Positions 124 to 44,142 of a stretch of DNA of 44,142 nucleotides are shown here, piece after piece. The number at the start of each line of letters is the position of its first letter. Position 1 is the stretch's first letter. Origin of the DNA: a virus; IMG/VR virus record IMGVR_UViG_3300009702_000004, positions 1 to 44,142 of that record; one strand, written 5' to 3'. The translations under genes were made by a program, and so were the position numbers. Below the pieces are notes generated by a model, which worked only from the letters and a program-made list of their open reading frames with translations, had not been told where the DNA came from and ran no database searches.

Positions 124-926
124 TGGGCTCGAATGGCATTGTGCTGTGTACAGGTTCTTGAGCCACCATCAGCATAGGTCTTATATTGATCAAGAAACAA
201 ATAGAGTGGGCCAACGGTATTTGTTGCGACTTCTACTGCTACTGCAGCATTGATGAGAAGCTGCGCGGCGAAAAGAAAGCCAGTATCCTCGAAACGCATT
301 GTATGCTGGAAATTTATACCCCCGACAGCCTGATCGTTACCAAGGCCGCCGCCACCCGGTATGTTTGTCGTGATCGTTCGCCCGGAAGAACTGAAGAATG
401 CAGAAGCTGAGGGGCCTGTATCTGTCGTGATGGTGAAATCATCAGGCCACAATTCAATGGCCATCTTGCCAGTAACATCTGGCTGTGAGAATTTCAGCAG
501 CCTCCGACTTCCGTGCCCCATACTCAACGAACCATCACCAACTGCTCGAAGGATGTCGAGGCTGCTCGCATCGCGGACAGCAAAGATGTCCCCCACGCCA
601 GACGCCAGATCAATTGTCAATGGAGCGCCAGCGGCTATTGTGAGCTGTGGGACCGCTGTCGCTGCGTCATAGACGGTCTGCAGCGTCTCTACGGTGGGGG
701 TTACCCATGTCGGTATCCCAGCGACTACTTCCAGCGCATCGCCGACACTTCCTACGGGAAGGCGGGCAGTTGCTCCTGCGATCTGTATCACCATGTCTCC
801 ATCAGTGCTCAATGGATCAACATATCCACCGCCTGTTCCCGAGCCGCCTCCGACGGGCGTTACAGCCGCGCCTGATGAGATGAATCGGGGCCGTGGGGTG
901 GCCCGACCGGGGATATTGAACGGCAC
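1..926 (-). CDS. Tail-fibre-like protein, 5' part. It runs off the left edge and continues in frame at 44019->43683, about 420 aa in total.
   Basis: I checked every triplet of the minus frame from 926 to 1 and found no stop. It is in frame with track ORF 43683..44072 through the 123-nt overlap. GTG at 926 follows GAGGAG by 9 nt and sits just after the terL stop. The segment GDMVIQIAGATARLPVGSVGDALEVVAGIPTWV resembles a motif common in phage fibre proteins. The ORF is missing from the track because it has no stop inside the window edge. Confidence 0.75.
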   Translation of the reverse strand, partial: MPFNIPGRATPRPRFISSGAAVTPVGGGSGTGGGYVDPLSTDGDMVIQIAGATARLPVGSVGDALEVVAGIPTWVTPTVETLQTVYDAATAVPQLTIAAGAPLTIDLASGVGDIFAVRDASSLDILRAVGDGSLSMGHGSRRLLKFSQPDVTGKMAIELWPDDFTITTDTGPSASAFFSSSGRTITTNIPGGGGLGNDQAVGGINFQHTMRFEDTGFLFAAQLLINAAVAVEVATNTVGPLYLFLDQYKTYADGGSRTCTQHNAIRAQPKWGPNINGGSITQTSVELFYGSLSVDATVGSASITTASI

Positions 927-29926: not shown

Positions 29927-32422
29927 CTAGCTGAAGAAGTAGCGCGAAGTCCGCACCTGTTGAACATTGAAGGTGCCCTTTGGGGGTGGCAATGGGACTT
30001 CCGCCTGTGATGAAAAACTTCGATATAGCAGATCAATCACATCGCGTCCATCATAGAGAGAGATGAACGCTTCCCGAGTCGCCTCTGCCATAGTTGAGGC
30101 GTCACAGGCATGAGTACTGTAGCTGTCGTGAACCATTCCGAAGGCGTCGATACCTCCGCGAGAAGCAAGCACTAGAGTCATCATCATTGCCGCCGCATCC
30201 AATGAATGGATGACATTCGGAGCGATGCTGTTTTTATGCTTGATGCGGAGCGCCTTTTTGGTCTTGCGCCATGTTGAGAGCGTGACAATGGAGCCGCATA
30301 GAATTGTCTGTACACGGTGTCTCTTCATGTTCCAATATTCTTGTCGAGCAGGAAAGCCCGTTACCGGGACTGTCCATTCGACGAAGCCCCGTTCGTCACA
30401 CACAGCGCCCGCGCATTCCGCGAGCCACTCCATGCCGCCGAACGCGGCGACTACTACATCCTCTAGCGCTGTCCAGATAAGACCAGCCAAATATCGGCAT
30501 AGAGGGCCGATATAGGATGATCCGTTGTCCAGTTCAAAGGTGGACTGGTTGATCTCCTGCCAGTTGTCTTCCCCCACGAGCGATTCCTCGATCTGTCGGG
30601 CCATGCCGAAAGTCTTGGACCCGTAGGCAAAGGTCATAGTGGGCCGTTTGAACAAAGACCTGCTCAGGAGTCCACTGTGAAGCCACCACTTAGCTGTATC
30701 CATTCCAGTAGCAGCGTCCCGAGCGACAAGCGTGCGGACTGCAGAGTGGATGGCGTCATATACATCGCGAGGTAGGCTTTCTTCTGTGAGGTTGACTTCC
30801 CGCGCCCCTCTAGGATCGCGCAGCAATGCCGCGAAGTGTTGTAGCCCGTTGCATGTACCATCTTGCGCGATGGGGAGACTACTGCGAAAGCGCTCCCCGT
30901 TCCCCACCGCGTCAGCCTCCATGTAGGCATTCCATTCGATTGCGAACGCAAGAAACTGAAACGGTTTATCGGCTTCAGACCACCATGTGATTCCAGCAGG
31001 ATCTTTCGCCACTGCTCGAATTGCCTCTGTGTTAGCCCTGATCCATTGAGCCCTTTGCTCGAAGGATTCTTTGCTGAATTTGTGTCCATCAAACTCTCCT
31101 AGTGTATTAGCCCCGTGTATAGCAAGCCAAGTAGCACCAGTAGTATTGAGGGGCTTAGAAGCAGAAAAACAAAGAAGCCCACGCTGCAGGTCTGAACCTT
31201 GCGGTTGAAGACCTGAACAGATCGGATAGGCTCTTCCTCGGAAGTCGAGATTATGCGGAAACCAGATTCGATCATATTGAGCAAATTGCTCAGCGAGCTC
31301 GATGGCCGTAAACCATTCGATGAGTCTGCTCGCTCGGAGATTGTTCCGCTCTTTGATTTCCGACGCGGCCCGCTTCCATTCTCTGAGTTGTTTCTGTTGC
31401 TCTTCTGTCTGACGATGGCGCTGTATTCCTTTCTTCATCCACGGATGCTTGGGCGGCATGGGCTCTGGCTCAGCGTCAGGAAGACCGCCAAGAGAGCTTC
31501 CTCTCTCGCGGAGATCCAATACCACGTCGAGCACGCGCTGATTGACCCGCCAAGCGGTGGACTGCATTCTGTTGAGCCCCTCATAGACGAAAGGCATGTC
31601 GACCTGTCGGACCCGAGCGTTGCTGGTCTTGCGAACAAGCGGATATTTGTCACGCAACGCATAGCGATACCCGCCGTTCGTCTCCTGTGTCCACGGCAGC
31701 GGCTCTTCGACCATCGGCAGGGCCTGCGGCCGATGCCACTGCATTATGTCATTGGTGTCTTCGAGGAGCTGCTGTGTCTCTTCAGTGAGAGCGAAGGTCT
31801 TGACCTCAGACCATTTCTGTCCCTTCTTCCTCTTCTTGTTTGTGAGACGACCGATGCCGGTTGTGTCAAGGCACACATTGATCAACTTGAGGCCGAGGAG
31901 CATAGCTTCCCGGTCAGTCAGATTCGCGTCGTCCTCGACCCCTGCGTATCGAGCTGCTTGGTTCAGAGAATGTGCTCTATGCTTGTAGTTGGACGTGTTG
32001 AATTGCCGCATGCGGTATTCAAACAATCCCCGAGCCTCTGTCCGCAGCTTCCGATAGCGTAGCTCGTCATTCAGCAGTCTCGCGATGGTCGGAGCGAGTT
32101 TGGAGATGTTGCTCTCGATGTGAGGATGCCCCAACAGTGTCCTGATGGTGATGTAGGCTGCCACATCCGTGCCGACCAACTGAAGCCACCGGATCAAAGT
32201 GCCATAGCCCCGCCGATCCTTCTTAACGAGTATCTCGTCAAAGGCCTTTTTGGTCGGTGACAATACCTTCTGCAGCAGCTTGCGGGCGGCGCCCTCAGCT
32301 GTCGCATCTCCTTCTTGAGATAACTCTTCGAGTCTCTTCCTGAAGCGGAGAGCCCCGTTGGCCAATGCTGCATCTTCCAGCTCTGTTTGACGCTGGTGCA
32401 TCGCTAAGGAATCATCGTTCAA
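29927..32422 (-). CDS. Single-subunit DNA-directed RNA polymerase (T7 gp1-like)
   Basis: 831 aa with FRGRAYP, DGTCNGLQHFAALLRD and HDSYSTH motifs. TTG start follows AAGGAG by 9 nt. Confidence 0.96.
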   Translation of the reverse strand: MNDDSLAMHQRQTELEDAALANGALRFRKRLEELSQEGDATAEGAARKLLQKVLSPTKKAFDEILVKKDRRGYGTLIRWLQLVGTDVAAYITIRTLLGHPHIESNISKLAPTIARLLNDELRYRKLRTEARGLFEYRMRQFNTSNYKHRAHSLNQAARYAGVEDDANLTDREAMLLGLKLINVCLDTTGIGRLTNKKRKKGQKWSEVKTFALTEETQQLLEDTNDIMQWHRPQALPMVEEPLPWTQETNGGYRYALRDKYPLVRKTSNARVRQVDMPFVYEGLNRMQSTAWRVNQRVLDVVLDLRERGSSLGGLPDAEPEPMPPKHPWMKKGIQRHRQTEEQQKQLREWKRAASEIKERNNLRASRLIEWFTAIELAEQFAQYDRIWFPHNLDFRGRAYPICSGLQPQGSDLQRGLLCFSASKPLNTTGATWLAIHGANTLGEFDGHKFSKESFEQRAQWIRANTEAIRAVAKDPAGITWWSEADKPFQFLAFAIEWNAYMEADAVGNGERFRSSLPIAQDGTCNGLQHFAALLRDPRGAREVNLTEESLPRDVYDAIHSAVRTLVARDAATGMDTAKWWLHSGLLSRSLFKRPTMTFAYGSKTFGMARQIEESLVGEDNWQEINQSTFELDNGSSYIGPLCRYLAGLIWTALEDVVVAAFGGMEWLAECAGAVCDERGFVEWTVPVTGFPARQEYWNMKRHRVQTILCGSIVTLSTWRKTKKALRIKHKNSIAPNVIHSLDAAAMMMTLVLASRGGIDAFGMVHDSYSTHACDASTMAEATREAFISLYDGRDVIDLLYRSFSSQAEVPLPPPKGTFNVQQVRTSRYFFS

Positions 32423-32444
32423 TATACTGTACTCCTTTGTGTGT

Positions 32445-32760
32445 GGAGCTGTGTGTCCTCGGGTTACCCCTCAGGTTGCTACCCTATACCCTCCTTGGTT
32501 ACTATCCCCTCATTGGGTTACCCTCAGGTAGCTTCCCTATCTCTCCTACGTACCTCCTTGCGTTACCTCATTGGGTTACTCTCCTTAGGTAAGGAACAAC
32601 AATGAATAACTCTCCTAGGGGTATATACCCAATAGACCTCTTTGCGTACCTCCTTGCGTTACCTCATTGGGGTGCAGGTCATAGAGGATAGACCTCAGGT
32701 GCTCATGGGGAAGACTCCTAAGGTATACCTATATACAGTCTTTTTCTTCTTTTTTTTCTC
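32445..32760 (-). repeat. Array of imperfect direct repeats with Shine-Dalgarno-like cores in the RNAP leader
   Basis: Exact 27-mer cgtacctccttgcgttacctcattggg at 32549-32575 and 32645-32671. Four copies of cctc(att)gggtta. At least eight AGGAG/AAGGAGG cores on the minus strand without start codons. Confidence 0.85.
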
Positions 32761-32762
32761 CT

Positions 32763-32785
32763 CCTTCTTAAGGGTAGACTTTGTT
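32763..32785 (-). promoter_or_regulatory. Candidate phage-RNAP promoter, copy 2 (AACAAAGTCTACCCTTAAGAAGG)
   Basis: 21 of 23 nt are identical to 19826-19848. It lies at the head of the RNAP leader. Confidence 0.45.
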
Positions 32786-32828
32786 GTAGAAAACCCGAAC
32801 AAAACATTACAAAGGTCGTAACCCGTTG

Positions 32829-33155
32829 CTAGAAGCGCACTTGTACGCTGCGTCGGGCGGTCGCTTCGTGGTCGGGCGGCAGGGCATCCATCAGGGCTGC
32901 GATATACCTGACCAGCCGTCCCTTGGCTTTGATCATCCTGCCGTAGGCGTCCCCTGTATAGGACACCGCCCCGTCTCTTCCGTCGCTCACTTCTCTGAGC
33001 GCCACCTCAAAGTCCGCGGAGGTCTCCATCAGCTCATCAACGAGGGTCATTGCTTTCGGTGTCACCCGGATCACTGGAAAAAATTTCCCCTTATCCCCCC
33101 CTCGATTGCGCTTAGGAGGTTCTGGCAGGAATGGTCCATCTGATAGGATTGACAA
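32829..33155 (-). CDS. Hypothetical early protein, paralogue of 37885..38106
   Basis: TLVDELMETSADFEVALREV...GRLVRYIAAL aligns with TLIDELIRTSANLKMRLREA...TRVMDYIEAL. TTG start. Confidence 0.6.
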   Translation of the reverse strand: MSILSDGPFLPEPPKRNRGGDKGKFFPVIRVTPKAMTLVDELMETSADFEVALREVSDGRDGAVSYTGDAYGRMIKAKGRLVRYIAALMDALPPDHEATARRSVQVRF

Positions 33156-33183
33156 GATGTGTCGCCTTTCTGTGTGTTTGTGA

Positions 33184-33263
33184 TGGAGGCGCAGGGAATC
33201 GAACCCTGGTCCGGGCAGCTCGCCACTGTTGGGTCTTTGCTCCCGTCAAACCCATTCGCCCCC
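33184..33263 (-). ncRNA. Minimal tmRNA-like RNA (tRNA-like domain only)
   Basis: Acceptor helix GGGGGCG/CGCCUCC with G3:U70. T-arm CAGGG-UUCGAUU-CCCUG. The 5' string GGGGGCGAAUGGGUUUGACGGGA resembles the tmRNA 5' end. No D-stem or anticodon arm. It fills a 119-nt intergenic gap. Confidence 0.65.
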
Positions 33264-33274
33264 TTCTTTTTTTC

Positions 33275-33433
33275 CTATCCTTCTCTTCTTTCAAGCTCTG
33301 TTATGATCGCTATGGATTCTTCTCTTTCGATTCCTCCTCGGTTTCTCTGCGCCAGCTTGATGAGACGTTCTTGGAGCCACTCGTTCGGCCAGTTCTCGAA
33401 GCCTGTCGGTTGCTCATTATCATCAGGATGCAT
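33275..33433 (-). CDS. Possible small ORF, 52 aa
   Basis: The ATG overlaps the end of the upstream ORF. Below the track threshold. Confidence 0.4.
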   Translation of the reverse strand: MHPDDNEQPTGFENWPNEWLQERLIKLAQRNRGGIEREESIAIITELERREG

Positions 33434-33695
33434 CTTTCAGCATCTTTCTGAGCTCTGCTTTGATTCGTCTTGCGTCTGCTCCTCTGAAGTGTGCTGCGTT
33501 TCCGAGGAATCGATACAGGATTCCGACTGCGCTGTCGTAGCCATAGTAGTCATTGACTGTGTTCAATTCTTGCATGGCTCTCAGATAGGGCTCTGCCGCG
33601 AAATTTACCTTTGGGCGCCCGTTCTTGTCAACCCACTTCTGTCTGATCTCTCTGGCTATTGTTGAGATCGGCCGCTGTTCCGGTGGTGATGTCAT
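33423..33695 (-). CDS. Hypothetical early protein, 90 aa
   Basis: ATGA overlap with the upstream ORF. Confidence 0.6.
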   Translation of the reverse strand: MTSPPEQRPISTIAREIRQKWVDKNGRPKVNFAAEPYLRAMQELNTVNDYYGYDSAVGILYRFLGNAAHFRGADARRIKAELRKMLKDAS

Positions 33696-33934
33696 TTTCG
33701 TTTTGTCTCCTTTTTCTTTCGTAGTCTGGTGACTTCTGTCTTTCCTGATAGATTGATCCGTCCTGTGTAGTTTCCTGAGATTTCTTCTTTGTCATCATCC
33801 GGTCTGTTCGGCGTGTCGAGTTTCACTGTTACTCCGCTGAGTGTCGAGAATTTGATTGTTCCCTTCAGCCACGGACAGTTGGTTACTCGAAACCTTGCTT
33901 CCTCACACTTCTCCGCCAACTTCCTTAGGAACAT
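33692..33934 (-). CDS. Hypothetical early protein, 80 aa
   Basis: ATG 6 nt after GAGGAG. Basic C-terminus. Confidence 0.6.
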   Translation of the reverse strand: MFLRKLAEKCEEARFRVTNCPWLKGTIKFSTLSGVTVKLDTPNRPDDDKEEISGNYTGRINLSGKTEVTRLRKKKETKRK

Positions 33935-34130
33935 TCGATTCTCCTCTGTAGGCTGCGAGGTTGAGTCCCCAATGCCTTTTCAGCTCTCCGAGTTCATCAT
34001 CTACTGCGAGGATGTTGTCGTACCAGCCGGTGAGTATCTCACCATCGATTGGGTCTATGGCACAGTACATCATGTTGTCGTCGGAGTCCTCGAAGTCCAT
34101 CTTGAGTCTGCACAGCTCTGCTATGAGCAT
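33903..34130 (-). CDS. Hypothetical early protein, 75 aa, acidic
   Basis: Compact ORF in the early operon. Confidence 0.5.
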   Translation of the reverse strand: MLIAELCRLKMDFEDSDDNMMYCAIDPIDGEILTGWYDNILAVDDELGELKRHWGLNLAAYRGESNVPKEVGGEV

Positions 34131-34132
34131 TT

Positions 34133-34312
34133 TCAGATCCTCATCTTTCTTGATTGCGCTCTTTTGCGCTTTTCTGCCACGCGGTGGGCTCTGGCATATA
34201 GGATGCCTTTTTGGCCCCGCTTTGGTCGGAGGCCTCTCTTATCGAGGAGGCTTTTGAGTAGTTTCTGCAGATTGTAATCGCTGATGCTCTGCAGGAGTGC
34301 GATTGTGCTCAT
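34133..34312 (-). CDS. Possible small basic protein, 59 aa
   Basis: Fills the gap between two ORFs exactly (stop, 2 nt, next ATG). K/R-rich. One codon below the track threshold. Confidence 0.45.
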   Translation of the reverse strand: MSTIALLQSISDYNLQKLLKSLLDKRGLRPKRGQKGILYARAHRVAEKRKRAQSRKMRI

Positions 34313-34316
34313 CGGT

Positions 34317-34607
34317 TTATATCATCCCTTCTATGTCGAAGTCTTCGATCATGTCTTTGATCTCTGTCAGCAGCTCTGCTGTATTTTCTGTTTCTTGCAG
34401 AGCTGATTCGACATCGCTCATCATGTTGCTCATCGTCTCTTCGATTTCAGTTTGAATCTTCTGCTTCACTTCATCTCGGATTTCGTCTTCGATTTCTTCT
34501 TTGATGCTATCTCGAAACTGATCTTCCAGTTCTGACGGAAGTTTGCTGATGTCGTAGAGTTCTCTGATGGTTTCTGTGTTTACGTCTGCTAAGTAGTAGC
34601 GTGACAT
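34317..34607 (-). CDS. Highly acidic early protein, 96 aa (DNA-mimic candidate)
   Basis: About one third of residues are D or E (EIEDEIRDEVKQKIQTEIEE...). Confidence 0.6.
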   Translation of the reverse strand: MSRYYLADVNTETIRELYDISKLPSELEDQFRDSIKEEIEDEIRDEVKQKIQTEIEETMSNMMSDVESALQETENTAELLTEIKDMIEDFDIEGMI

Positions 34608-34611
34608 GGAG

Positions 34612-35187
34612 TTACGTGCTCCTTATCTGCAACCAAATGGTCGCTTGGAATTGGGCGACGGACTGTCCGACCATCTTTGAGGCCACTTCGAGGGCCTTTG
34701 TGATGCGCCCATATTGTTTCTGTGTTGGTGCTATCTTCTTGCTGTTTCGTCCGTTCACAATTCGCATGATCCATCGATCTATGACTGCTGCACTCATGTC
34801 TCCTGTGAGTGCTAGCGCGAAGGCATTGACTTTCGGGCCTTTTAGCGCATCTAGTTCTCCTCTGAGACATGCTTTCGCCTTATCTATTGGGTCTTTCATT
34901 CCTACGGCGTTATTGCCGTTGGCGAGTTGTCGCACTACTTCGATGTTTCTGCTCCATTGCATTTGGTTGCTCAGTGCTGCGACGGCATATGCAATGTTGT
35001 GGAACGGCTTGTTTAGTTCTTCGGCCAGTTCTCTGATGTCATGCTGTGCTTCCCAATACCACATGGTGCCTTCTCCTACTTGTTCTGCTGTTGCTCGTCT
35101 CCAGCTCGCTAGGAACTTGTTGACGTAGCCGAGGTTTAGCGGTGCTCGCTTTCCCCGCTCGATGGCTTTCTTGTCGTATTTTGGCAC
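34612..35187 (-). CDS. Hypothetical early protein, 191 aa
   Basis: Largest early ORF. No motif I can name. Confidence 0.65.
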   Translation of the reverse strand: MPKYDKKAIERGKRAPLNLGYVNKFLASWRRATAEQVGEGTMWYWEAQHDIRELAEELNKPFHNIAYAVAALSNQMQWSRNIEVVRQLANGNNAVGMKDPIDKAKACLRGELDALKGPKVNAFALALTGDMSAAVIDRWIMRIVNGRNSKKIAPTQKQYGRITKALEVASKMVGQSVAQFQATIWLQIRST

Positions 35188-35193
35188 TTATCG

Positions 35194-35448
35194 TTAGCCA
35201 TCCAGTTCAGCATAGAATTCATCGCGCTCTGCAGTTGTGTCGAATCTGCAGTCGTCTTCTGGGTCGTCGTCGGGCTCTTCTTCGTCGAAGACTCCGTAGG
35301 CGACCGCCCATTGATAGAGGGATTCGTCGTTCTTGATCCAGTCTTCTCGGTCTTTGTCGTCGAGGCTGAAGTTTGGTTCATTCAGCGCTTCTCGAATTAT
35401 TTTATCGAGTTCTCCTCGATTCTTGTCGAGGAATTGTTGTAAGGTCAT
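35194..35448 (-). CDS. Hypothetical early protein, 84 aa
   Basis: I chose ATG 35448, 8 nt after AGGAGG. The longer GTG start in the track lacks an RBS. Confidence 0.55.
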   Translation of the reverse strand: MTLQQFLDKNRGELDKIIREALNEPNFSLDDKDREDWIKNDESLYQWAVAYGVFDEEEPDDDPEDDCRFDTTAERDEFYAELDG

Positions 35449-35540
35449 CTGCTGCAGCCTCCTAGATCTCTGCAATGTTCCCATGAAATTATCACAATGC
35501 CGTAGATGATGATCGCCCATTGTATTGCGATCAAGAACAT
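35445..35540 (-). CDS. Possible 31-aa hydrophobic peptide
   Basis: MFLIAIQWAIIIYGIVIISWEH... Its TGA overlaps the next ATG (ATGA). Confidence 0.3.
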   Translation of the reverse strand: MFLIAIQWAIIIYGIVIISWEHCRDLGGCSR

Positions 35541-35575
35541 TGTGATCTTTCAGTTGTGCCACCAGCTCTTCATCT

Positions 35576-35812
35576 CTATTTCTTGATGATCTTTATCCAG
35601 TTGGTTTTGTGTTGCTTGAGGGTGAGGCTTTTGTCTGACGATATTCCTGCGTCGTGCAGAGCATCGAAGATTTTGATTGTTGCGCTATGCCCATACATGT
35701 GTCCTATGATTCTTTGTAGGACTCTTGCGGTTTCTATGGACATTTTCAGATGGACAGTCTTTTCGATTCTTTGTTCGATTCTTGCTTCACATCTTTCTTT
35801 GATAGGCACCAT
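35576..35812 (-). CDS. Hypothetical early protein, paralogue of 36401..36646
   Basis: MSIETARVLQRIIGHMYG...DALHDAGI aligns with LSVENAQVLRQIMQHIGG...VALSEAGI. Confidence 0.55.
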   Translation of the reverse strand: MVPIKERCEARIEQRIEKTVHLKMSIETARVLQRIIGHMYGHSATIKIFDALHDAGISSDKSLTLKQHKTNWIKIIKK

Positions 35813-35833
35813 CTGTTGTTGTTCTCCTTTCTT

Positions 35834-36385
35834 TTAGTAGTCGTAGAGCGTTGCTGGGCTTCCAAAATCGAAACAGTAGAGTTCTCCGTTGTAGGTTCCT
35901 ACATTTCCGATGTGGATGTCCTCGAAGGCCATTTGCTCGAATTGATTTCTCCACTTCTTGTTATCTTTCCAAAACTCTTCTACTTCTTCTCTGTTTGCGC
36001 TGTAGGCTAGGTCTAGGGGTTCTACTGTGAGTTGCAGGCAGCCTGTCTGGCCAACTCTAACCGTCGGTACGCAGTATTTCTGCAGGCCATAGTCTTTCAT
36101 TTTCTTGTATAGCTCTGCCTCGTCTACTGCGTTTTCTCCGAGCTTCAGCGTCCACTGTTTGTTGATGAACACTATTGGCTTGCAGATTCCTTCTTTTGCG
36201 GTTTTGGCTTGGAAGGCTTTTCGCATTTCTTTGATCAGCCTTTTTATCTCTACATCCTTTGATATTCTCCAGTGTATGTCCGTGTCAGCCAGCATCTTGA
36301 ATTTGGTTCTCCAGCCGCTATTGAGATGCTTGGCTATTTTCTTCAGCCTTTTGATGATCTCTTTTCTCTCTGTCTCGGCCATCAT
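35834..36385 (-). CDS. Early protein with a kinase-like catalytic segment (possible gp0.7 analogue)
   Basis: FEDIHIGNVGTYNGELYCFDFG resembles the HxGN...DFG catalytic/Mg loop of atypical kinases. This is a weak call. Confidence 0.35.
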   Translation of the reverse strand: MMAETERKEIIKRLKKIAKHLNSGWRTKFKMLADTDIHWRISKDVEIKRLIKEMRKAFQAKTAKEGICKPIVFINKQWTLKLGENAVDEAELYKKMKDYGLQKYCVPTVRVGQTGCLQLTVEPLDLAYSANREEVEEFWKDNKKWRNQFEQMAFEDIHIGNVGTYNGELYCFDFGSPATLYDY

Positions 36386-36400
36386 GATGATTCTCTCGTA

Positions 36401-36646
36401 TTAGAGGTCTGAGAAGTAGATTGAGCCGCTGAATTCTGTCAGCTTCTTGGTCGCGATCTCGATTCCTGCCTCACTTAGTGCTACGTCGAGTTCTCCTATC
36501 ATTCCTCTTGCCGTTGTTCTTGGGCTTCCTCCAATGTGTTGCATGATCTGTCTCAGCACTTGTGCGTTTTCTACTGAGAGTTCTACTATCACGCGTCCTT
36601 CTGCTATTACCACTGGTTCGGTGATTCTTGCTGTTGGCTTTGACAT
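36401..36646 (-). CDS. Hypothetical early protein, paralogue of 35576..35812
   Basis: See 35576..35812. Confidence 0.55.
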   Translation of the reverse strand: MSKPTARITEPVVIAEGRVIVELSVENAQVLRQIMQHIGGSPRTTARGMIGELDVALSEAGIEIATKKLTEFSGSIYFSDL

Positions 36647-36669
36647 TAGGTTTGGTTTCTCTCTTTCTT

Positions 36670-36912
36670 TTATTTCTTTTGGGCGATTGTGATCGTGACG
36701 ACACCGTTTCGGAATTTCTTTCCGAAGTGTCGTTCAAAATCCTTTGGACAGAATTCGAAGAGGACTTCGTTTGTCTTGTAGTCTCTGAGTCTGTAGTTTG
36801 TTGCTTCTGGCGGCTCGTTTCTTACTTGGTCGCAGATGCTGCAGCCGCGGTCCATGCACAGCTCATCGTGTGTCGTTCTGATGCTTAGCCGGAATCGTCG
36901 CGTTTTCTTCAT
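36670..36912 (-). CDS. Hypothetical early protein, 80 aa
   Basis: Compact ORF containing a CxxC pair. Confidence 0.5.
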   Translation of the reverse strand: MKKTRRFRLSIRTTHDELCMDRGCSICDQVRNEPPEATNYRLRDYKTNEVLFEFCPKDFERHFGKKFRNGVVTITIAQKK

Positions 36913-36918
36913 CTTGTG

Positions 36919-37239
36919 CTATTCTCCTGTGAGCAGATTGACTCCGCAGTAGTTACATGTTGCGGAATCTGAGCAAGAATGTGCTCTAATCTCAGTTTGT
37001 ATCAGATGTTCGGCGACGCCTCGGAATTTGTGTTGGAGCTCTCCGTTGCATTGATCGCAGAAGGATAGCCCCCAATCATTCCAATGTGCGCCCACGATCT
37101 GTTCAAGTGGGTGTTTGTTTCTGCACTCACTTGAGCAGAATCCGGGTCTTGCTGGGCTTCGTGGTCCTTCTGCCTCCATGCGGAAGTCTTTTCCACATGA
37201 TAGGCAGAAGAACTCTACGTCGCTTGTTCTGATGATCAC
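36919..37239 (-). CDS. Cysteine-rich zinc-finger-like early protein
   Basis: CLSCG, CSSEC, CDQCNG and CNYCG pairs. Confidence 0.55.
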   Translation of the reverse strand: MIIRTSDVEFFCLSCGKDFRMEAEGPRSPARPGFCSSECRNKHPLEQIVGAHWNDWGLSFCDQCNGELQHKFRGVAEHLIQTEIRAHSCSDSATCNYCGVNLLTGE

Positions 37240-37640
37240 TCTGCTGATGCTTCCGCGTAGTCAGCAGCATCAGGCTTCTCTTCCTGCTGCTGCTCTTGCG
37301 GGCTTCCTACGCCATCAAGCATGGTGATCTCGGAGGCCACGATCTCGGTCGTGTACCGAGTGTTGTTCTCCTTGTCCGTCCACTTGCGGTATTGGAGGCG
37401 GCCCTCTACGTAGACCTTGGAGCCCTTCTTCAGGTACTTCTCCGCGATCTCTGCCAGTCCGCGCCACACGACGACCCGATGCCACTCGGTCTTCGTGATC
37501 TTGTCGCCCGCGGCGCTCTTGTAGGTGAAGTTTGTTGCCACTGACAGCGTGGCTACGCTGTCGCCGTTGTTGGTCATGTTGATCTCGGGGTGCATTCCGA
37601 GGTTACCGATGAGCATGACTTTGTTGAGTCCACGAGACAT
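37236..37640 (-). CDS. ssb: Bacterial-type OB-fold single-stranded DNA-binding protein
   Basis: LNKVMLIGNLG...TEWHRVVVWRGLAE...VYVEGRLQYRKW is a canonical SSB core. The C-terminus lacks the usual DDDIPF tip. Confidence 0.9.
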   Translation of the reverse strand: MSRGLNKVMLIGNLGMHPEINMTNNGDSVATLSVATNFTYKSAAGDKITKTEWHRVVVWRGLAEIAEKYLKKGSKVYVEGRLQYRKWTDKENNTRYTTEIVASEITMLDGVGSPQEQQQEEKPDAADYAEASAE

Positions 37641-37644
37641 GATA

Positions 37645-37878
37645 TTATTCCTTTTCGTTATCGCTCAGACGTAGCGATTGGTTGATGAGCATGCTTGTGG
37701 CGATGTTGCCCAAGTTGCTCAGATGGTCACTTAGCATTGAGTGGCGGTCTTCGGCTTCGTTGCCGCCTCTGCTCTGCTCTATTGCGTCGTTTGCATGACG
37801 CTGTACTGCTGTCAGGCCTTCGATGACTTCTGTCAAGAGCCTGACGTCTTCGAGGAAGCCTCTGGTCGTGTCTAGCAT
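37645..37878 (-). CDS. Hypothetical early protein, 77 aa
   Basis: Compact ORF. Confidence 0.5.
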   Translation of the reverse strand: MLDTTRGFLEDVRLLTEVIEGLTAVQRHANDAIEQSRGGNEAEDRHSMLSDHLSNLGNIATSMLINQSLRLSDNEKE

Positions 37879-37884
37879 GATGGT

Positions 37885-38106
37885 TTAGCTCTCCTCTGTT
37901 AGGGCTTCGATGTAGTCCATCACCCGCGTCTTCGCTTGGGCCGCTTGGATGTAGGCGGTTGCTGCGCGTTCGAACCTGCCTTCTTCTACGCGGTCATCCT
38001 TTGCTTCTCTGAGCCTCATCTTCAAGTTGGCTGACGTTCTTATCAGCTCATCAATGAGGGTATTTCCATCTACTGGTGGGCACGAGATGTAGGTGCTTTT
38101 CATCAT
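37885..38106 (-). CDS. Hypothetical early protein, paralogue of 32829..33155
   Basis: See 32829..33155. Confidence 0.55.
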   Translation of the reverse strand: MMKSTYISCPPVDGNTLIDELIRTSANLKMRLREAKDDRVEEGRFERAATAYIQAAQAKTRVMDYIEALTEES

Positions 38107-38111
38107 TTTGG

Positions 38112-38486
38112 CTATCTCCTATCTGTGTGGTGGTACTGGTGAACATAGACTTTGAGCCCGGAGGCCGTGGCCAGGTTTATCATGTGTTTCGTTCCGCGGC
38201 TCTTTCCATCCCAAATTGCGATGAGTGCGTCGGCATATTTTGCCATTTTCGCGTTTCGCTTGTAGCCTGCACTTCTTCCGAAGCGTTCCCATTGAGCAGG
38301 GAATCTCTTGATCGGTATGCCGTAGAACTTGGCCAGTTGTTCGCCTATTTGGTCAACGCCGCGAGCACATCCTGACACTATTTCTGTGATGTGAATGCTG
38401 TGAGGTGGTAGGTCGGCTATGTTCATGGCGTCTTGTACAGTCTTGTTGTCGTTGATGTTTCGAGAACCTGCAATGATTGTCTTCAT
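38112..38486 (-). CDS. SLOG/DUF2493-like Rossmann-fold protein, first gene of the early block
   Basis: MKTIIAGSR...IVSGCARGVDQIGE...YKRNAKMAKYADALIAIWDGKSRGT pattern. RBS GAGGAG. Confidence 0.55.
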   Translation of the reverse strand: MKTIIAGSRNINDNKTVQDAMNIADLPPHSIHITEIVSGCARGVDQIGEQLAKFYGIPIKRFPAQWERFGRSAGYKRNAKMAKYADALIAIWDGKSRGTKHMINLATASGLKVYVHQYHHTDRR

Positions 38487-38519
38487 GAGCTGGCTATCTC
38501 CTCGGTGCGGGTGGTGATA

Positions 38520-38624
38520 ATGCCTCGACGGGACTCGAACCCGTTACGTTTGACCGACTCAAGGCACATCAGCTGGGAGCGCCCAACTGACTATTACTGG
38601 TGCTGCATCCCCATACTCGGGGCA
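38520..38624 (-). ncRNA. tRNA-like element (T-arm plus acceptor helix, no anticodon arm)
   Basis: ACGGG-UUCGAGU-CCCGU followed by CGAGGCA. That pairs 6 of 7 with UGCCCCG 97 nt upstream. An internal 8-bp hairpin CAGUUGGG-CGCU-CCCAGCUG is present. The element ends 33 nt before the first early gene. Confidence 0.4.
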
Positions 38625-39584
38625 GGTATATGCATCGTGATCTAGTGGTCTTCTTCAGGTCGGAGGTTCGCTCTTTATCGCGCTCTACTACCGATGAATG
38701 GGGCGCCACACCCAATCTCCCAACCTGTCTCTCCCGGTCATCTGCTACTTCTGATGTCCGGCACCGCCCTGAGTACGAGAGGGCACGACATGACCTAACC
38801 ACTCGCTGCTGCTTGGGGATCAAAGGTCTCCACAAGATACCAGTGCCGAGCTTCGCTACAAGGCCAAGATGCCTCATTCCTCGTTCGCCTCATCAGAGGG
38901 CGTCTATGGTTCGGGCGCTGTACTCAGGGGTCCAACACTCACTGAGCCCTAGCCTGACGGGGTGCCCCGCCGTCTCCCTAGTCGCCAGTGCTGCTCGCGT
39001 AGTGCCTCCGACGACAGCATAAGGTCAGCGAAGGAGGCGCATAGGAGCGTAGCGACGATTAGCGCTGACTGGTCCTCCAGAGCGAAGCGCAAGGGTCTGC
39101 CCAGAGGGCCGAGGAGCGTAGCGACGAGCCCTTGCGTGTAGCGAAGAGGGCGCTACCGTTGTGCTGTCTAGGGGGCACCCAGCGAGCCACGTCGGCGGCG
39201 CAGGGTTAAGACGTCGAGGGCACCCCGATGCTAGGAATGCTCCGGGACGTGGACCTAGAGGACAGTGTTCGGACCATGGTCGATGCCGAGGCGGGCGTGG
39301 AGTGTGACATTGGCGCTCCGAAGCTCGGTCATCGATTGTGGAGGCCCGCACAAGCGAAGCGATGGACTTGGACGGTCGCTCCTCATTAGGTGTCTGCTGT
39401 ATGCTGCGCCGCCCCGCGCACGTAGGGGCCACACCGAAGGTGTGTCATAGATGCCACCGCACGCTGTTATGCGGTAGGCATCATGATGCTCGTGGGTATT
39501 GAAAAAGACCGATCCTTCGTGCAACTATGTGCATCTCAAGAAGCGCTGTGTGCCATCGGCTTGGTCGGGCAAAAGGAGGGCCCG
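38625..39584. ncRNA. Candidate large structured non-coding RNA (class and strand unresolved)
   Basis: About 1 kb with only junk ORFs on both strands. GC is visibly higher than in the flanks. It contains many local GC-rich helices and internal repeats. Confidence 0.4.
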
Positions 39585-39636
39585 CCGAGGTCACCAAAGG
39601 AGACACCCCAAGTGTCTCCTTTTGGGGACACCTCGG
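39585..39636. terminator. Long imperfect hairpin with a bidirectional intrinsic-terminator appearance
   Basis: AAAGGAGACAC-CCCAA-GTGTCTCCTTT (39596-39622) is flanked by CCGAGG/CCTCGG. It is followed by TTTT on the plus strand and TTTGG on the minus strand. Confidence 0.5.
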
Positions 39637-39748
39637 GAACCGTATGGTGGCCCTCGGCCGGAACCGGATGCGGTGGTAGTGGGGCCGCGCCGGGAGGCTC
39701 CGAAGGAGCCCCCCGGGGGGGACCGCCCGAGCGACAGCGAGGGGGGGG

Positions 39749-39866
39749 AGGCGCTCGGGTCTGACCCAAAAAATTCGAGTGGAGGCGCGCTCGGGTCTGA
39801 TGACCCAAAAAATTCGAGTGGTGGAATACCATCGTCGGAATGCCTCCTGTGTGACCCAAAAAATTC
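39749..39866. repeat. Three direct repeats containing GACCCAAAAAATTC
   Basis: Copies start at 39763, 39802 and 39853. The first two extend to about 34-39 nt (aggcgc(gc)tcgggtctga(tg)cccaaaaaattcgagtgg). Confidence 0.9.
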
Positions 39867-39978
39867 CGGCGAGGCGCTGTACGCCCTCCTAAGGCCCGAC
39901 CCCAAATAAAAGGGCCTGGGAGTCGTACATCATACCGTTTGCGGCCCCTGCTCGGGCTGGAGTGGGCCCGTGTCCGTT

Positions 39979-40545
39979 TTATCGGATGCCAAGGACGGCT
40001 ATGTACGCCGAATGCGTCATAGCAAGCCCAAAAGCGGATGTGACGTGCCAGAGGCCGTGATTGACCCACTTTCGGATGCCCAAAGCCGCCACGAGGGCCA
40101 AGGTGGCCCATGAGAGGCTCATGAGGGGGGCCGGATAGAGGCTGACTACCGAGATCCCCGAACAAAACCCGAAGAGGAGAGGCGGAATGCCAAGAAATGC
40201 CACCTTGTGCTCCATCTTCATGTGTTGGAGCTTACGGCTCACTCGAAGCCGCCATCCGAGGGGTACAGCCGTGATGGGGGCGAAGATGAGGGGGAAGCCG
40301 AATACCAGCAGACCGAGATAGAGGAGGACGGCATAGATCATCCCCACATCCCAGCTGTTGCCGTTTCTGCCCCCGGCGTGGTAGTAGGCGGAGGTGAGGC
40401 CAAGGCCGGTCATCATTCCCGCCCACAGCGGGTCTCCGGAAAGGAGGCCCACCGCGGGATAGGCGAGACTGGTCAGGACTTCCCACCGGAGGAAATGCTT
40501 AGCGGGGGGAAACGTCACCACGATCCGTCTCCTCGTCGTCCCCAA
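39979..40545 (-). CDS. Multi-pass membrane protein (weak ceramidase/PAQR-like His motifs)
   Basis: About five hydrophobic helices, with YYHAG...SWDVGMIY and GLWHVTSAFG. The start is uncertain because the 5' end overlaps the upstream gene. Confidence 0.55.
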   Translation of the reverse strand: MGTTRRRIVVTFPPAKHFLRWEVLTSLAYPAVGLLSGDPLWAGMMTGLGLTSAYYHAGGRNGNSWDVGMIYAVLLYLGLLVFGFPLIFAPITAVPLGWRLRVSRKLQHMKMEHKVAFLGIPPLLFGFCSGISVVSLYPAPLMSLSWATLALVAALGIRKWVNHGLWHVTSAFGLAMTHSAYIAVLGIR

Positions 40546-40801
40546 GGCCGAGCTGGCGAAGGAAATCGAGAGACATGATGTCCTCCGGGGCTACGCCCTT
40601 CGGCAGAGTCAGAACTACGCCCTCTTTCAGGAACCCACTGATCTTGCCGGCAGCGTCGAGCGCTATGGCGCCATTGCGGGCCGCCTGAGCGACGGTGTGG
40701 CGATAGTTGGTTCTGATCTCGGCGCCCATGGGGGTCCGGGTCACGGCATAGTATGCGACTTCGGTGGTCTTGCCCGACTGAGCGGGGGTAGCATCAGCCA
40801 T
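40499..40801 (-). CDS. Hypothetical protein, 100 aa
   Basis: I chose ATG 40801, preceded by AAGGAAGG. Confidence 0.55.
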   Translation of the reverse strand: MADATPAQSGKTTEVAYYAVTRTPMGAEIRTNYRHTVAQAARNGAIALDAAGKISGFLKEGVVLTLPKGVAPEDIMSLDFLRQLGLGDDEETDRGDVSPR

Positions 40802-40926
40802 TTTTGGTCCCTTCCTTTTCTTGTGATACGGCGCATTCATTGCACCAGATGAGTTGAAGACGCCCGATCTTGCGGACGTGGCATTTCTTACACAGCATAT
40901 GCTCCGGCACTGTCGTCGGTTTACTG

Positions 40927-41199
40927 CTACCCTTCGAGGTCACGGAGCCATCCGGGGCGGTCGTCTTTCTTACCTGGGTCGGCCCCGGCGGTCGCCGATT
41001 CGACCCAGCCCACCAGATAGGCCATCATATGAGATTCAGCAAACTGTAGGGCATGACTCCTCAGCTCTACCTCGCTCGCCTCTGGCATCCGCACGCGGAG
41101 GAGAGTGAGGAAGTTGGCCACGCTTGGAGTTGATTCCCATCTCTGATAGAGAGAGATCAAGGCTCCCGGGGTGGGATCGTGTTCGATATTGCTACCCAT
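40927..41199 (-). CDS. Hypothetical protein, 90 aa
   Basis: The internal ATG 41199 overlaps the upstream stop (ATGGGTAG). Confidence 0.5.
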   Translation of the reverse strand: MGSNIEHDPTPGALISLYQRWESTPSVANFLTLLRVRMPEASEVELRSHALQFAESHMMAYLVGWVESATAGADPGKKDDRPGWLRDLEG

Positions 41200-41488
41200 C
41201 GATCTTTTTTCCCTCCTTCTCTTCTTTCCACCGGCGCCGACAGTCTGGCCGATCACAGGGGCACAGGTCGGGCCGATTGCAGCCGAAGCTGCGGTAGTAG
41301 GATTCATCAAACTGCATTTTGTTTCCCATGGGCCGCGGGGTGTCGCCTTTGCCGCTATTCTGCTGCTGCCGCGCCATGGCTCTCTTAGACGACCGAGAGA
41401 TCGGCATCCCGAGATGAGCCGCGACCTCTTCTTTGGAGAAATCGACTACCGGCCTCCCGCTGGACGGATCTGTGTATTTTTGGGGCAT
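41192..41488 (-). CDS. Hypothetical protein, 98 aa, with a Cys cluster
   Basis: Carries CNRPDLCPCDRPDC. Basic. Confidence 0.5.
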   Translation of the reverse strand: MPQKYTDPSSGRPVVDFSKEEVAAHLGMPISRSSKRAMARQQQNSGKGDTPRPMGNKMQFDESYYRSFGCNRPDLCPCDRPDCRRRWKEEKEGKKIDG

Positions 41489-41510
41489 ATTGCCGCAAAA
41501 TCCTTCCTTT

Positions 41511-42032
41511 TTAGGCTATTAGAGCCCGTATGGTGGGAATTTTCAAACTGAAATTGCTGAACCAAACCTGTTCGACGGCAACGCCGAAGTCCTGAGTCTG
41601 TTCATCAGCCAGTCGGGCGAGCTCCCGGAGAAAGTTGCGGCGTCTGGCGACGGTCTCGAAGCGATCTATGTCTACCTCAGCCAGTCGCTCCGCGAGGACG
41701 GCCTCCAGGATCTCTGTCATGCTCTCTTCATAATCGTCAACTTTGAAGAGAGCCGCGGTGGCGTCGATTACTTGCACCCAAGCGCTGGCCTCGAAGTTGA
41801 GGGTCGTCCCATCTTTCAGAGTGATGTCTTGGCGTGAACCAACGATCACGAATGGCACTGTGGTCACAGGGAGCACGTCTCCCAATATCGGGCAGACGAG
41901 ATAGATCCCGGGCCCTTTCTCTTTCCGCGGTCTGTTGAACCACGTCCTGATGCCGGTCTCCCAGCCTTGGACGTGCCTGACCGGGAACAATTCTGTCATT
42001 ATGTCTACCAGAAACTCCCATAATACACCCAT
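41511..42032 (-). CDS. SPFH/Band-7 (stomatin-prohibitin) domain protein
   Basis: VRHVQGWETGIRTWFNRP...GPGIYLVCPILGDVLPVTTVP...DITLKDGTTLNFEASAWVQVID follows the SPFH pattern. Confidence 0.55.
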   Translation of the reverse strand: MGVLWEFLVDIMTELFPVRHVQGWETGIRTWFNRPRKEKGPGIYLVCPILGDVLPVTTVPFVIVGSRQDITLKDGTTLNFEASAWVQVIDATAALFKVDDYEESMTEILEAVLAERLAEVDIDRFETVARRRNFLRELARLADEQTQDFGVAVEQVWFSNFSLKIPTIRALIA

Positions 42033-43682: not shown

Positions 43683-44142
43683 TTATGTCCACACTGGAAT
43701 CCAGTGTGCAACGCCGTTGATGTCGATCTCCACCCACTGTGCCTGTGCGGCAACAGTTGGGCCGGAGCCTCCGATTGTTCCCAGCGTGGCGGCTGCGCCC
43801 GCGCCGAGGGCTATTCCCCTATTGATGTCCAAACGGCCATTCACAACTACATCACCGCCAAAGATACTTCCTGCTGTTCCTGTGTGGTTGATAAAGGTAC
43901 CGTTGTTCATTGCAGAGTTGATTCCGCGGATAGTGGTCGGTCCTGAGATATTCGCTATATCAATTCCATTGAAGGTGCCAATAGTTCCGCCAGCCGTCAG
44001 AGTCACCGCTTTTACAGCGAAGATACTAGCAGTCGTAATAGAAGCAGACCCCACTGTGGCGTCTACTGACAAGGAGCCATAGAATAACTCTACGCTAGTC
44101 TGCGTGATTGAACCGCCATTTATATTCGGACCCCACTTTGGC
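43683..44142 (-). CDS. Tail-fibre-like protein, 3' part (same gene as 1..926; nt 44020-44142 duplicate nt 1-123)
   Basis: In frame with the open minus frame of 1..926. The start at 44072 in the track is an internal TTG. Confidence 0.75.
   Translation of the reverse strand, partial: PKWGPNINGGSITQTSVELFYGSLSVDATVGSASITTASIFAVKAVTLTAGGTIGTFNGIDIANISGPTTIRGINSAMNNGTFINHTGTAGSIFGGDVVVNGRLDINRGIALGAGAAATLGTIGGSGPTVAAQAQWVEIDINGVAHWIPVWT
44020..44142. repeat. Second copy of the 123-nt terminal overlap
   Basis: Identical to nt 1-123. Confidence 0.97.

What the first reader, a model, noticed from the sequence alone, without database searches (positions are those of the whole stretch)
38520..38624. 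Second tRNA-like element, placed immediately upstream of the first early gene
Seen: the minus strand has a textbook T-arm (ACGGG-UUCGAGU-CCCGU) followed by CGAGGCA. That pairs with UGCCCCG 97 nt upstream, with one C/A mismatch. Between them lie an 8-bp hairpin with a tetraloop and a 4-bp hairpin, but no anticodon-type loop. The element ends 33 nt before the SLOG gene start. Together with the tmRNA-like element at 33184-33263, tRNA-shaped RNAs sit near both ends of the early gene block. A member of the same small-protein paralogue pair follows each within about 400 nt (37885..38106 and 32829..33155). Inference: these may be RNase P/Z processing punctuation, 3' caps that stabilise RNAs, or decoys. 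A fragment of a host tRNA used as an attachment site is an alternative, but no integrase is present.
Basis: partly seen in the sequence, partly recalled or inferred. Interest (0 to 1): 0.6.

Follow-up and report, generated by a model that had tools for sequence, protein, structure and literature searches.

The report
Armless tRNA-like minihelix before early gene
A T7-like phage carries, 33 bases ahead of its first early gene, a tRNA-derived remnant of about 47 bases that keeps only the acceptor stem and T-arm; it is real and is probably cut by the host's tRNA-processing enzymes, but it was found only in this phage and its function is unproven.

Summary
The T-arm (ACGGG-UUCGAGU-CCCGU) and the 3' acceptor strand CGAGGCA are present on the minus strand at 38544-38521. 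They are not chance: simulated genomes give 0.007 such T-arm plus acceptor combinations, and the real genome has three. A nearer 5' strand, UGCCUUG (38566-38560), pairs perfectly. It gives a 46-48 nt "top-half" minihelix that is 3.9 kcal/mol more stable than the 105-nt form, with pair probability 0.94-0.99 against 0.01. A distal 6-of-7 match is expected by chance.

The element is not a tRNA by ARAGORN (relaxed settings) or Rfam. It is not a TLD-only tmRNA: it scores 9.6 bits where true members score 78-100. It does not look like an att relic: there is no integrase, and its 3' 22-24 nt have no match in viral, genome or metagenome collections. Its acceptor is of the Gln/Asn type (U1:A72).

In the closest relative that has the SLOG gene, the same slot holds a TLD-only tmRNA. 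In unrelated phages the slot holds real tRNAs.

Best reading: a tRNA-derived element processed by RNase P and RNase Z, like plant-mitochondrial t-elements, that sets the 5' end of the SLOG mRNA. A functionless relic is the main rival. No homologue was found, so there is no covariation evidence.

The parts
38528..38544 (-). T-arm: 5-bp stem ACGGG/CCCGU with canonical 7-nt T-loop UUCGAGU. G53, U54, U55, C56, R57, A58 and C61 equivalents are all present.
   Evidence: Sequence read. Canonical-T-arm scan against simulated genomes. Aligned as the T-arm by Rfam mascRNA and by model R1.
38520..38527 (-). 3' acceptor strand CGAGGCA (38527-38521) plus discriminator U38520. The next bases are UAU, so no CCA is encoded.
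   Evidence: In IMG/VR this acceptor 3' strand belongs mostly to tRNA-Gln, tRNA-Asn and CUA-suppressor tRNAs.
38560..38566 (-). Proximal 5' acceptor strand UGCCUUG, pairing 7/7 with CGAGGCA. This is the preferred partner. G38567 can add a G-U pair with U38520.
   Evidence: MFE fold. Pair probabilities 0.94-0.99 and constrained energy -40.3 kcal/mol. Used in the alignments.
38545..38559 (-). 15-nt connector AGUCGGUCAAACGUA that takes the place of the D-arm, anticodon arm and variable region.
   Evidence: ARAGORN finds no tRNA even at 50-60% thresholds or in intron and armless-tRNA modes.
38568..38591 (-). 10-bp hairpin GUCAGUUGGG-CGCU-CCCAGCUGAU. It lies upstream of the minihelix in the preferred fold.
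38603..38625 (-). 5' hairpin that sequesters the distal candidate strand UGCCCCG (38624-38618).
   Evidence: Distal constrained fold -36.4 kcal/mol and pair probability 0.01.
38487..38519 (-). 33-nt spacer, the predicted leader of the SLOG mRNA after 3' processing. It carries the Shine-Dalgarno sequence GAGGAG at 38503-38498.
38112..38486 (-). First early gene: SLOG-family protein (PF10686 YAcAr, 36.6 bits against a cut-off of 28.2).
   Evidence: It is 65% identical to the L039 homologue, which is preceded by a mini-tmRNA.

Best explanation
The element is a tRNA-derived 'top half'. It has a 7-bp acceptor helix stacked on a canonical T-arm, joined by a 15-nt connector, and spans about 47 nt (38567-38520, minus strand). 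It has no D-arm and no anticodon arm.

It sits in the leader of the early operon, in a slot directly 5' of the SLOG/YAcAr gene. A related phage fills that slot with a TLD-only tmRNA, and unrelated phages fill it with ordinary tRNAs.

Inferred mechanism: the element is co-transcribed with the early genes and folds as soon as it is made. Host RNase P cuts at its 5' end (38566 or 38567). RNase Z, or RNase E followed by exonucleases, cuts after U38520. This would release a small RNA that can receive a CCA tail, separate the SLOG mRNA from the long GC-rich structured upstream RNA, and leave that mRNA a defined 33-nt leader. That is the way plant-mitochondrial t-elements and mascRNA work.

Shown: the motif, its best fold, its non-random nature, what it is not, and the slot equivalence.

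Inferred: co-transcription, cleavage, and any benefit to the phage.
For: T-arm and acceptor are present and far above chance. The proximal fold is the MFE with pair probability 0.94-0.99.

The only Rfam near-hit is the RNase P/Z-processed mascRNA architecture, at 20.7 bits and E=0.055, which is below the gathering score.

Hairpins made of acceptor stem, T-stem and T-loop are efficient RNase P substrates (PMC11143913). t-elements recognised by the GGTTCRANYCC motif define mRNA ends in plant mitochondria (PMC1920247).

All three tRNA-shaped RNAs of this phage lie on the coding strand, 25-51 nt upstream of the next start codon.

Relative L039 (RNA polymerase 66% identical, SLOG 65%) has a TLD-only tmRNA 43 nt upstream of its SLOG gene, although the gene order around it differs.

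Seven of 116 SLOG homologue loci have a real tRNA within 250 nt upstream, some within 3-28 nt.

The D-arm and anticodon arm are absent rather than mutated, while every T-arm invariant and all 12 stacked pairs are intact.
Against: No homologue of the element was found anywhere, and it is not conserved in L039. There is therefore no covariation and no evidence of selection.

The 7/7 5' strand has roughly a 6% chance of arising at random next to an orphan tRNA 3' fragment (my estimate from base composition).

No promoter was identified upstream, so co-transcription is assumed from gene orientation only. No RNA data could be obtained.

Other relatives (L044, L045, L046, L206, L207) have no tRNA-like RNA in the early regions fetched, so such elements are dispensable cargo.
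Confidence: 0.45

Rival explanations
1. Functionless relic. The element is the remains of a phage tRNA gene of Gln/Asn type. It was truncated by deletion or by recombination within a tRNA gene when the tRNA+SLOG cassette moved. It is still intact only because it is young. Any processing is incidental.
For: It is unique to this phage and not conserved in L039. Orphan T-arms that ARAGORN does not call are common in phage tRNA regions: 75 of 471 canonical T-arms in 1.16 Mb of fetched loci. One example is a bare tRNA 3' fragment about 33 nt upstream of the SLOG gene in L160. SLOG genes often sit next to tRNAs in other phages. tRNA-like RNAs are present only sporadically among the relatives.
Against: Decay should scatter mutations. 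Here the two recognition helices and all T-loop invariants are perfect, and the rest has been removed cleanly. A perfectly complementary 5' strand at a workable distance is not expected for a simple 3' fragment (about 6% by chance). Only 2 of the 75 orphan T-arms have a 7/7 5' strand within 30 nt.
Confidence: 0.3
2. Trans-acting decoy. After excision and CCA addition the minihelix accumulates and titrates a host factor that reads the tRNA top half. Candidates are RNase P, the CCA-adding enzyme, EF-Tu, or a defence toxin that acts on tRNA 3' ends. This would parallel the TLD-only tmRNA, which is thought to titrate SmpB.
For: The same genome encodes a TLD-only tmRNA. A similar TLD-only molecule is reported to inhibit tmRNA strongly, perhaps by titrating SmpB (PMC4131195). 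The mini-tmRNA occupies the equivalent slot in L039. Both RNAs keep exactly the acceptor/T-arm module.
Against: No conservation was found. No known aminoacylation identity set is present: there is no G3:U70, and U1:A72/G2:C71/C3:G70 with U73 matches no synthetase's minihelix rules that I know of. No partner protein is encoded nearby apart from an uncharacterised SLOG protein. All of this is inference.
Confidence: 0.1
3. One reading: a 105-nt, four-way-junction tRNA-like RNA (38624-38520) closed by the distal strand UGCCCCG, with the 10-bp hairpin in the anticodon-arm position.
For: A cloverleaf-like fold exists at -36.4 kcal/mol. The two 5' strands share UGCCYYGAGU, which may reflect duplication or an alternative pairing. 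A 140-nt tRNA-shaped RNA with the same acceptor type exists in another viral contig (L090).
Against: The fold has a C/A mismatch in the acceptor and is 3.9 kcal/mol less stable, with pair probability 0.01. A 6/7 match is expected by chance. The distal strand is sequestered in its own hairpin, which forms first during transcription.
Confidence: 0.1
4. Attachment-site relic: the 3' part of a host tRNA gene retained from a temperate ancestor.
For: The closest GenBank relative (MW202733, RNA polymerase 40% identical) has an integrase at the start of its early region. Contig-end tRNA-Gln 3' fragments with this acceptor occur in IMG/VR.
Against: There is no integrase or remnant of one (PF00589 six-frame search). 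The 22-24-mer has no match in 185,579 species genomes or 241 million metagenome records. A complementary 5' strand is not part of an att core.
Confidence: 0.03

Closest known systems
Plant-mitochondrial t-elements (Forner et al. 2007, PMC1920247)
   Same: They are non-decoding tRNA-like structures recognised by a conserved GGTTCRANYCC T-arm plus an acceptor-like stem. They lie in mRNA leaders or trailers and act as cis signals for RNase P and RNase Z that set mRNA ends. The present element has GGTTCGAGTCC and lies 33 nt before a start codon.
   Different: They belong to organelles, not phages. Their ends were mapped experimentally, and here nothing is mapped. Many t-elements keep a degenerate cloverleaf, whereas this one has only a 15-nt connector.
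mascRNA / MEN-beta tRNA-like (Rfam RF01684)
   Same: The architecture is the same: an acceptor helix, a short central region and a T-arm, excised by RNase P and RNase Z from a longer transcript. It is the only Rfam model that comes near (20.7 bits).
   Different: It is a vertebrate family. The score is well below the gathering score of 42.5, so there is no homology claim. mascRNA marks the 3' end of a long non-coding RNA, whereas this element precedes an mRNA.
TLD-only (tag-less) tmRNA of phages, e.g. mycobacteriophage DS6A (PMC4131195); copies at window 33181-33263, L039 4367-4445 and L042 1203-1281
   Same: It is a phage-encoded RNA reduced to the acceptor and T-arm. It occupies the same slot 5' of SLOG in L039.
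   Different: The element lacks G3:U70, the GGGGGCG/CGCCUCCA acceptor, the D-loop analogue and helix P2. It scores 9.6 bits on the clade model where members score 78-100.
Model hairpin substrates of bacterial RNase P (acceptor stem, T-stem and T-loop; McClain, Guerrier-Takada and Altman 1987, as reviewed in PMC11143913)
   Same: The same 12-bp coaxial helix capped by a T-loop, which is sufficient for accurate cleavage.
   Different: Those are synthetic and carry a 3' RCCA. This element is natural, has a 15-nt bulge at the helix junction, and encodes no CCA.
Phage tRNA-Gln and tRNA-Asn genes
   Same: The acceptor 3' strand CGAGGCA (a U1:A72 start) and the T-loop UUCGAGU are typical of them in IMG/VR.
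   Different: The element has no D-arm, no anticodon arm and no anticodon. It is not detected by ARAGORN or by the Rfam tRNA model.

Membership tests
tRNA (Rfam RF00005 / ARAGORN) | Cloverleaf with a D-arm and an anticodon arm carrying a 7-nt anticodon loop | tested here: not met
   ARAGORN default found nothing here. Thresholds relaxed to 50-80% and the armless (-mt) mode also found nothing. Only intron mode at ps70 returned poor models with mismatched acceptor stems, which I discarded. Rfam has no tRNA hit even at E<=10 on 251 nt.
tRNA (Rfam RF00005 / ARAGORN) | 7-bp acceptor stem contiguous with a 5-bp T-stem and a canonical T-loop | tested here: met
TLD-only tmRNA | G3:U70 alanine identity pair and the GGGG...CCUCCA-type acceptor | tested here: not met
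   The acceptor is U1:A72, G2:C71, C3:G70.
TLD-only tmRNA | A match to a tmRNA covariance model (Rfam RF00023, or clade model R1 built from three phage mini-tmRNAs) | tested here: not met
   No RF00023 hit here. R1 gives 9.6 bits against 78-100 for members.
mascRNA-menRNA (RF01684) | Score at or above the gathering score of 42.5 bits | tested here: not met
   20.7 bits, E=0.055 on 251 nt and 0.73 on 3.4 kb.
t-element-type processing signal | GGTTCRANYCC T-arm motif with an acceptor-like helix, outside a functional tRNA | tested here: met
   GGTTCGAGTCC at 38541-38531 with a 7-bp acceptor.
t-element-type processing signal | Transcript 5' and 3' ends that coincide with the ends of the element (RNase P and RNase Z cleavage) | not testable with these tools
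attP / tRNA 3' fragment | An integrase gene in the genome | tested here: not met
   PF00589 six-frame search of the complete 44,142-bp record gave no match at E<=10.
attP / tRNA 3' fragment | Identity of the 3' part to a bacterial tRNA gene | tested here: not met
   Zero matches in genome contigs and metagenome contigs. The true host is unknown, so this is strong but not absolute.

The most novel reading that the evidence does not exclude
The minihelix is deliberately kept as one of two 'tRNA top-half' decoys made early in infection; the other is the TLD-only tmRNA. Once excised and given a CCA tail, it would soak up a host factor or an anti-phage toxin that recognises the acceptor/T-arm end of tRNAs, while the mini-tmRNA disables ribosome rescue. 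The fact that a tRNA, a mini-tmRNA and a minihelix can each occupy the same slot across relatives would then reflect a modular set of tRNA mimics.
Probability: 0.07. Interest if true: 0.8.

Novelty: new variant of a known kind. Interest (0 to 1): 0.35.

Why it matters
T7 early mRNAs are classically separated by RNase III sites. If this clade uses tRNA-shaped RNAs instead (a true tRNA, a tag-less tmRNA or a bare minihelix), that would be a different route to early mRNA maturation. It would be the phage counterpart of organellar tRNA punctuation. It would also show that the acceptor/T-arm module alone is worth keeping.

In practice, such elements are invisible to tRNA finders and to Rfam, so phage annotation misses them.

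If the element is only a relic, it still marks a recombination scar. That scar links SLOG/YAcAr genes to tRNA cassettes, which is a lead to the unknown function of that protein family.

Tried and rejected
1. Homologue searches for the element all came back empty. These were the exact 24-mer in IMG/VR, a 23-mer with one N in 185,579 species genomes, a 22-mer in 241 million metagenome records, and blastn of 501 nt against GenBank phages.

2. A looser acceptor pattern in IMG/VR gave 70 loci. None has a SLOG, RNA polymerase or SSB homologue nearby. They only showed that the acceptor is of the Gln/Asn type.

3. A single-protein scan of IMG/VR with the RNA polymerase found nothing. Relatives had to be reached through the protein database and contig look-ups.

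4. The nearest SLOG homologues (59-66% identity) lie in unrelated phage contexts with no tRNA-like RNA upstream.

5. Alignment of the element with the mini-tmRNAs showed no credible homology.

6. I looked for a repeated phage-promoter motif near the element and found none. The sigma-70 scan found no promoter-like site upstream of the element.

8. A tblastn with the integrase of MW202733 added nothing.

9. A hammerhead-like CUGAUGA in the upstream block was rejected because it is not conserved in L039.

10. The records behind L039-L044 could not be searched whole.

Full report
**Context.** The window is a complete 44,142-bp IMG/VR virus record. Its 123-nt identical ends are an assembly overlap. 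All genes are on the minus strand. The 831-aa protein at 29927-32422 is a T7-type single-subunit RNA polymerase; the best GenBank match is 40% identical. This is therefore a T7-like podovirus. Read in the direction of transcription, the element lies at the end of a stretch of about 1.36 kb with no credible ORF (38625-39980) and 33 nt before the first gene of a low-GC early block. That first gene is a SLOG-family protein (PF10686 YAcAr, above the cut-off). ORFs that overlap the element have no Pfam or PHROG match.

A second 5' strand, UGCCUUG at 38566-38560, pairs 7 of 7. It is the partner in the unconstrained MFE structure, in the only Rfam near-hit and in my covariance-model alignment. With the T-arm enforced, the proximal fold reaches -40.3 kcal/mol and the distal fold -36.4. 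Ensemble pair probabilities are 0.94-0.99 against 0.01. From base composition I estimate that a 6/7 complement within 140 nt is expected about 1.7 times by chance, and a 7/7 complement about 0.06 times. The distal strand is also sequestered in its own hairpin (38625-38603), which forms first during transcription. The most likely unit is therefore a 46-48-nt minihelix (38567-38520) made of a 7-bp acceptor, a 15-nt connector and the T-arm. Two hairpins precede it, including the 10-bp stem with the CGCU loop at 38591-38568. The two 5' strands share UGCCYYGAGU, so a duplication or an alternative pairing cannot be excluded. I give the long fold about 10%.

**What it is not.**
- It is not a tRNA. 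ARAGORN finds nothing at default settings, at 80, 60 or 50% thresholds, or in armless mode. Only intron mode at a relaxed threshold returns poor models with mismatched acceptors. Rfam's tRNA model gives no hit at E<=10.
- It is not a tmRNA tRNA-like domain. There is no G3:U70 and no RF00023 hit. A model built from the three mini-tmRNAs of this clade scores them at 78-100 bits and this element at 9.6 bits.
- It is not a member of mascRNA-menRNA: 20.7 bits against a gathering score of 42.5.
- It does not look like an att relic. There is no integrase or fragment of one in six frames. Its 3' 22-24 nt are absent from IMG/VR, from one genome for each of 185,579 species, and from 241 million metagenome records.

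A looser pattern that keeps only the T-loop core and CGAGGCA found 70 IMG/VR loci. These are overwhelmingly tRNA-Gln (about 40), tRNA-Asn (9) and CUA-suppressor tRNAs (5). The acceptor is therefore of the U1:A72 Gln/Asn type, and a phage tRNA gene is the most plausible ancestor.

**Relatives.** RNA polymerase homologues at 59-66% identity led to contigs L039-L046, and two at 41-42% led to L206 and L207.
- L039, a 46.8-kb contig, is the only one that also has the SLOG gene (65% identity). Forty-three nt upstream of that gene it carries a TLD-only tmRNA (4367-4445).
- L039 also has a tRNA-Cys just upstream of the homologue of our 108-aa gene, where our phage has its mini-tmRNA.
- L042 has a mini-tmRNA two genes upstream of its RNA polymerase gene.
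- L044, L045, L046, L206 and L207 have none in the stretches available.

The gene order around SLOG differs between our phage and L039: SLOG then SSB in ours, SSB then SLOG in L039. Even so, a tRNA-shaped RNA stays directly 5' of SLOG in both.

The element itself does not align with L039. What is conserved upstream is a non-coding block of about 300 nt (window about 38680-38985, L039 about 2565-2870), with indels that are not multiples of three.

In unrelated phages, SLOG homologues sit directly after real tRNAs in 7 of 116 loci: L010, L012, L016, L033, L173, L186 and L191. From the tRNA density of the flanks I expect about 3, so this is a weak enrichment that array clustering inflates.

**Paralogue claim.** The 73-aa and 108-aa proteins are paralogues (41% over 56 aa, E=2e-9). 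However, the 108-aa gene is the conserved gene just upstream of the RNA polymerase gene in L039, L044, L045 and L046 (L042 has only a weak, partial match), and L044-L046 have no tRNA-like RNA in front of it. The pairing of a tRNA-like RNA with a paralogue is therefore probably coincidental.

**Mechanism.** All that remains is the 12-bp acceptor/T-stem stack capped by a T-loop. Hairpins of exactly this composition are efficient and accurate substrates for bacterial RNase P (PMC11143913). From established knowledge, not tested here, RNase Z and the CCA-adding enzyme also read this half of a tRNA. In plant mitochondria, degenerate tRNA-like t-elements found by the same GGTTCRANYCC motif define mRNA 5' and 3' ends (PMC1920247). 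All three tRNA-shaped RNAs of this phage lie on the coding strand, 25-51 nt before the next start codon. Their excision must therefore cut the polycistronic RNA at those points.

I infer that this element is excised by RNase P at 38566/38567 and by RNase Z or RNase E after U38520. No CCA is encoded, and the trailer UAUCA is A/U-rich. This would free the SLOG mRNA, with its 33-nt leader carrying the Shine-Dalgarno sequence, from the long structured upstream RNA. None of this is shown. No promoter was located, and RNA data were unobtainable.

**Rivals.** The main rival is a functionless relic of a tRNA that travelled with the SLOG cassette. Orphan T-arms are common in phage tRNA regions (75 of 471 in 1.16 Mb), and L160 has a bare tRNA 3' fragment before its SLOG gene. 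Against it, the missing arms were removed cleanly, every recognition feature is intact, and only 2 of those 75 orphans have a perfect 5' strand within 30 nt. A trans-acting decoy role is attractive but unsupported. It would parallel the TLD-only tmRNA; a similar molecule inhibits tmRNA, perhaps by titrating SmpB (PMC4131195).

**Novelty and score.** tRNA-like processing elements, TLD-only phage tmRNAs and degenerate phage tRNAs are all known. A bare acceptor/T-arm minihelix in the early leader of a T7-like phage, occupying a slot that relatives fill with a mini-tmRNA or a tRNA, did not turn up in the literature I could search. I class it as a new variant of a known kind. It is a singleton without comparative or expression support, so interest is moderate to low (0.35).

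Noticed in passing
window ~38680-38985 (minus) and L039 ~2565-2870: A non-coding block of about 300 nt just upstream of the element is conserved between this phage and L039. Islands include GCGCCCGAACCATA, GGCATCTTG, CCAAGCAGC, CATGTCGTG.CCTCTC and GGTGCCG. Indels are not multiples of three. There is no Rfam hit at E<=1. It could be a structured leader RNA or an early promoter/regulatory region.
   Followed up: partly
L039 4367-4445 and 9357-9431; L042 1203-1281: Relatives swap the type of tRNA-shaped RNA between fixed slots. L039 has a TLD-only tmRNA before SLOG and a tRNA-Cys before the homologue of the 108-aa gene. This phage has the minihelix and a TLD-only tmRNA in those two slots. The Rfam tmRNA model missed the L039 copy at the gathering score.
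   Followed up: yes
L010, L012, L016, L033, L173, L186, L191: SLOG/YAcAr (PF10686) genes of unrelated phages sit inside tRNA arrays or directly after a tRNA (3-28 nt in L010, L016, L033, L186 and L191). L200 has an RtcB RNA ligase about 1.2 kb upstream of its SLOG gene. This may point to a tRNA-related function for this uncharacterised family.
   Followed up: partly
L090 ~300-455 (+); L052 ~5260-5195 (-): Other IMG/VR contigs hold non-canonical tRNA-shaped RNAs that ARAGORN does not call. One is a 140-nt RNA with a UGCCUCG/CGAGGCA-ACCA acceptor, a T-arm and three internal hairpins (L090). Another is a 58-nt RNA without a D-arm that has a Cys-like GCA loop (L052).
   Followed up: no
IMG/VR loci L047-L116: Five phage tRNAs with a CUA (amber-reading) anticodon share the Gln-type acceptor UGCCUCG/CGAGGCA. 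This is consistent with Gln-derived suppressor tRNAs in phages that reassign TAG.
   Followed up: no
window 39762-39875: Three direct repeats of TGACCCAAAAAATTC(G/C) lie 39 and 51 nt apart, next to G/C homopolymer runs in the ORF-free stretch. They may mark the physical genome end or terminal-repeat region of this T7-like phage.
   Followed up: no
window 1-123 and 44020-44142: The record's 'direct terminal repeat' is a 123-nt exact overlap that falls inside a tail-fibre-like ORF (926->1 continuing from 44142->43683). It is an assembly circularisation, not the true phage end.
   Followed up: partly
window 32001-38000 versus 38001-42000: There is a sharp compositional step at the element. The early block has 47-51% GC with a strongly negative AT skew on the + strand. 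The upstream non-coding and accessory region has 58% GC.
   Followed up: no
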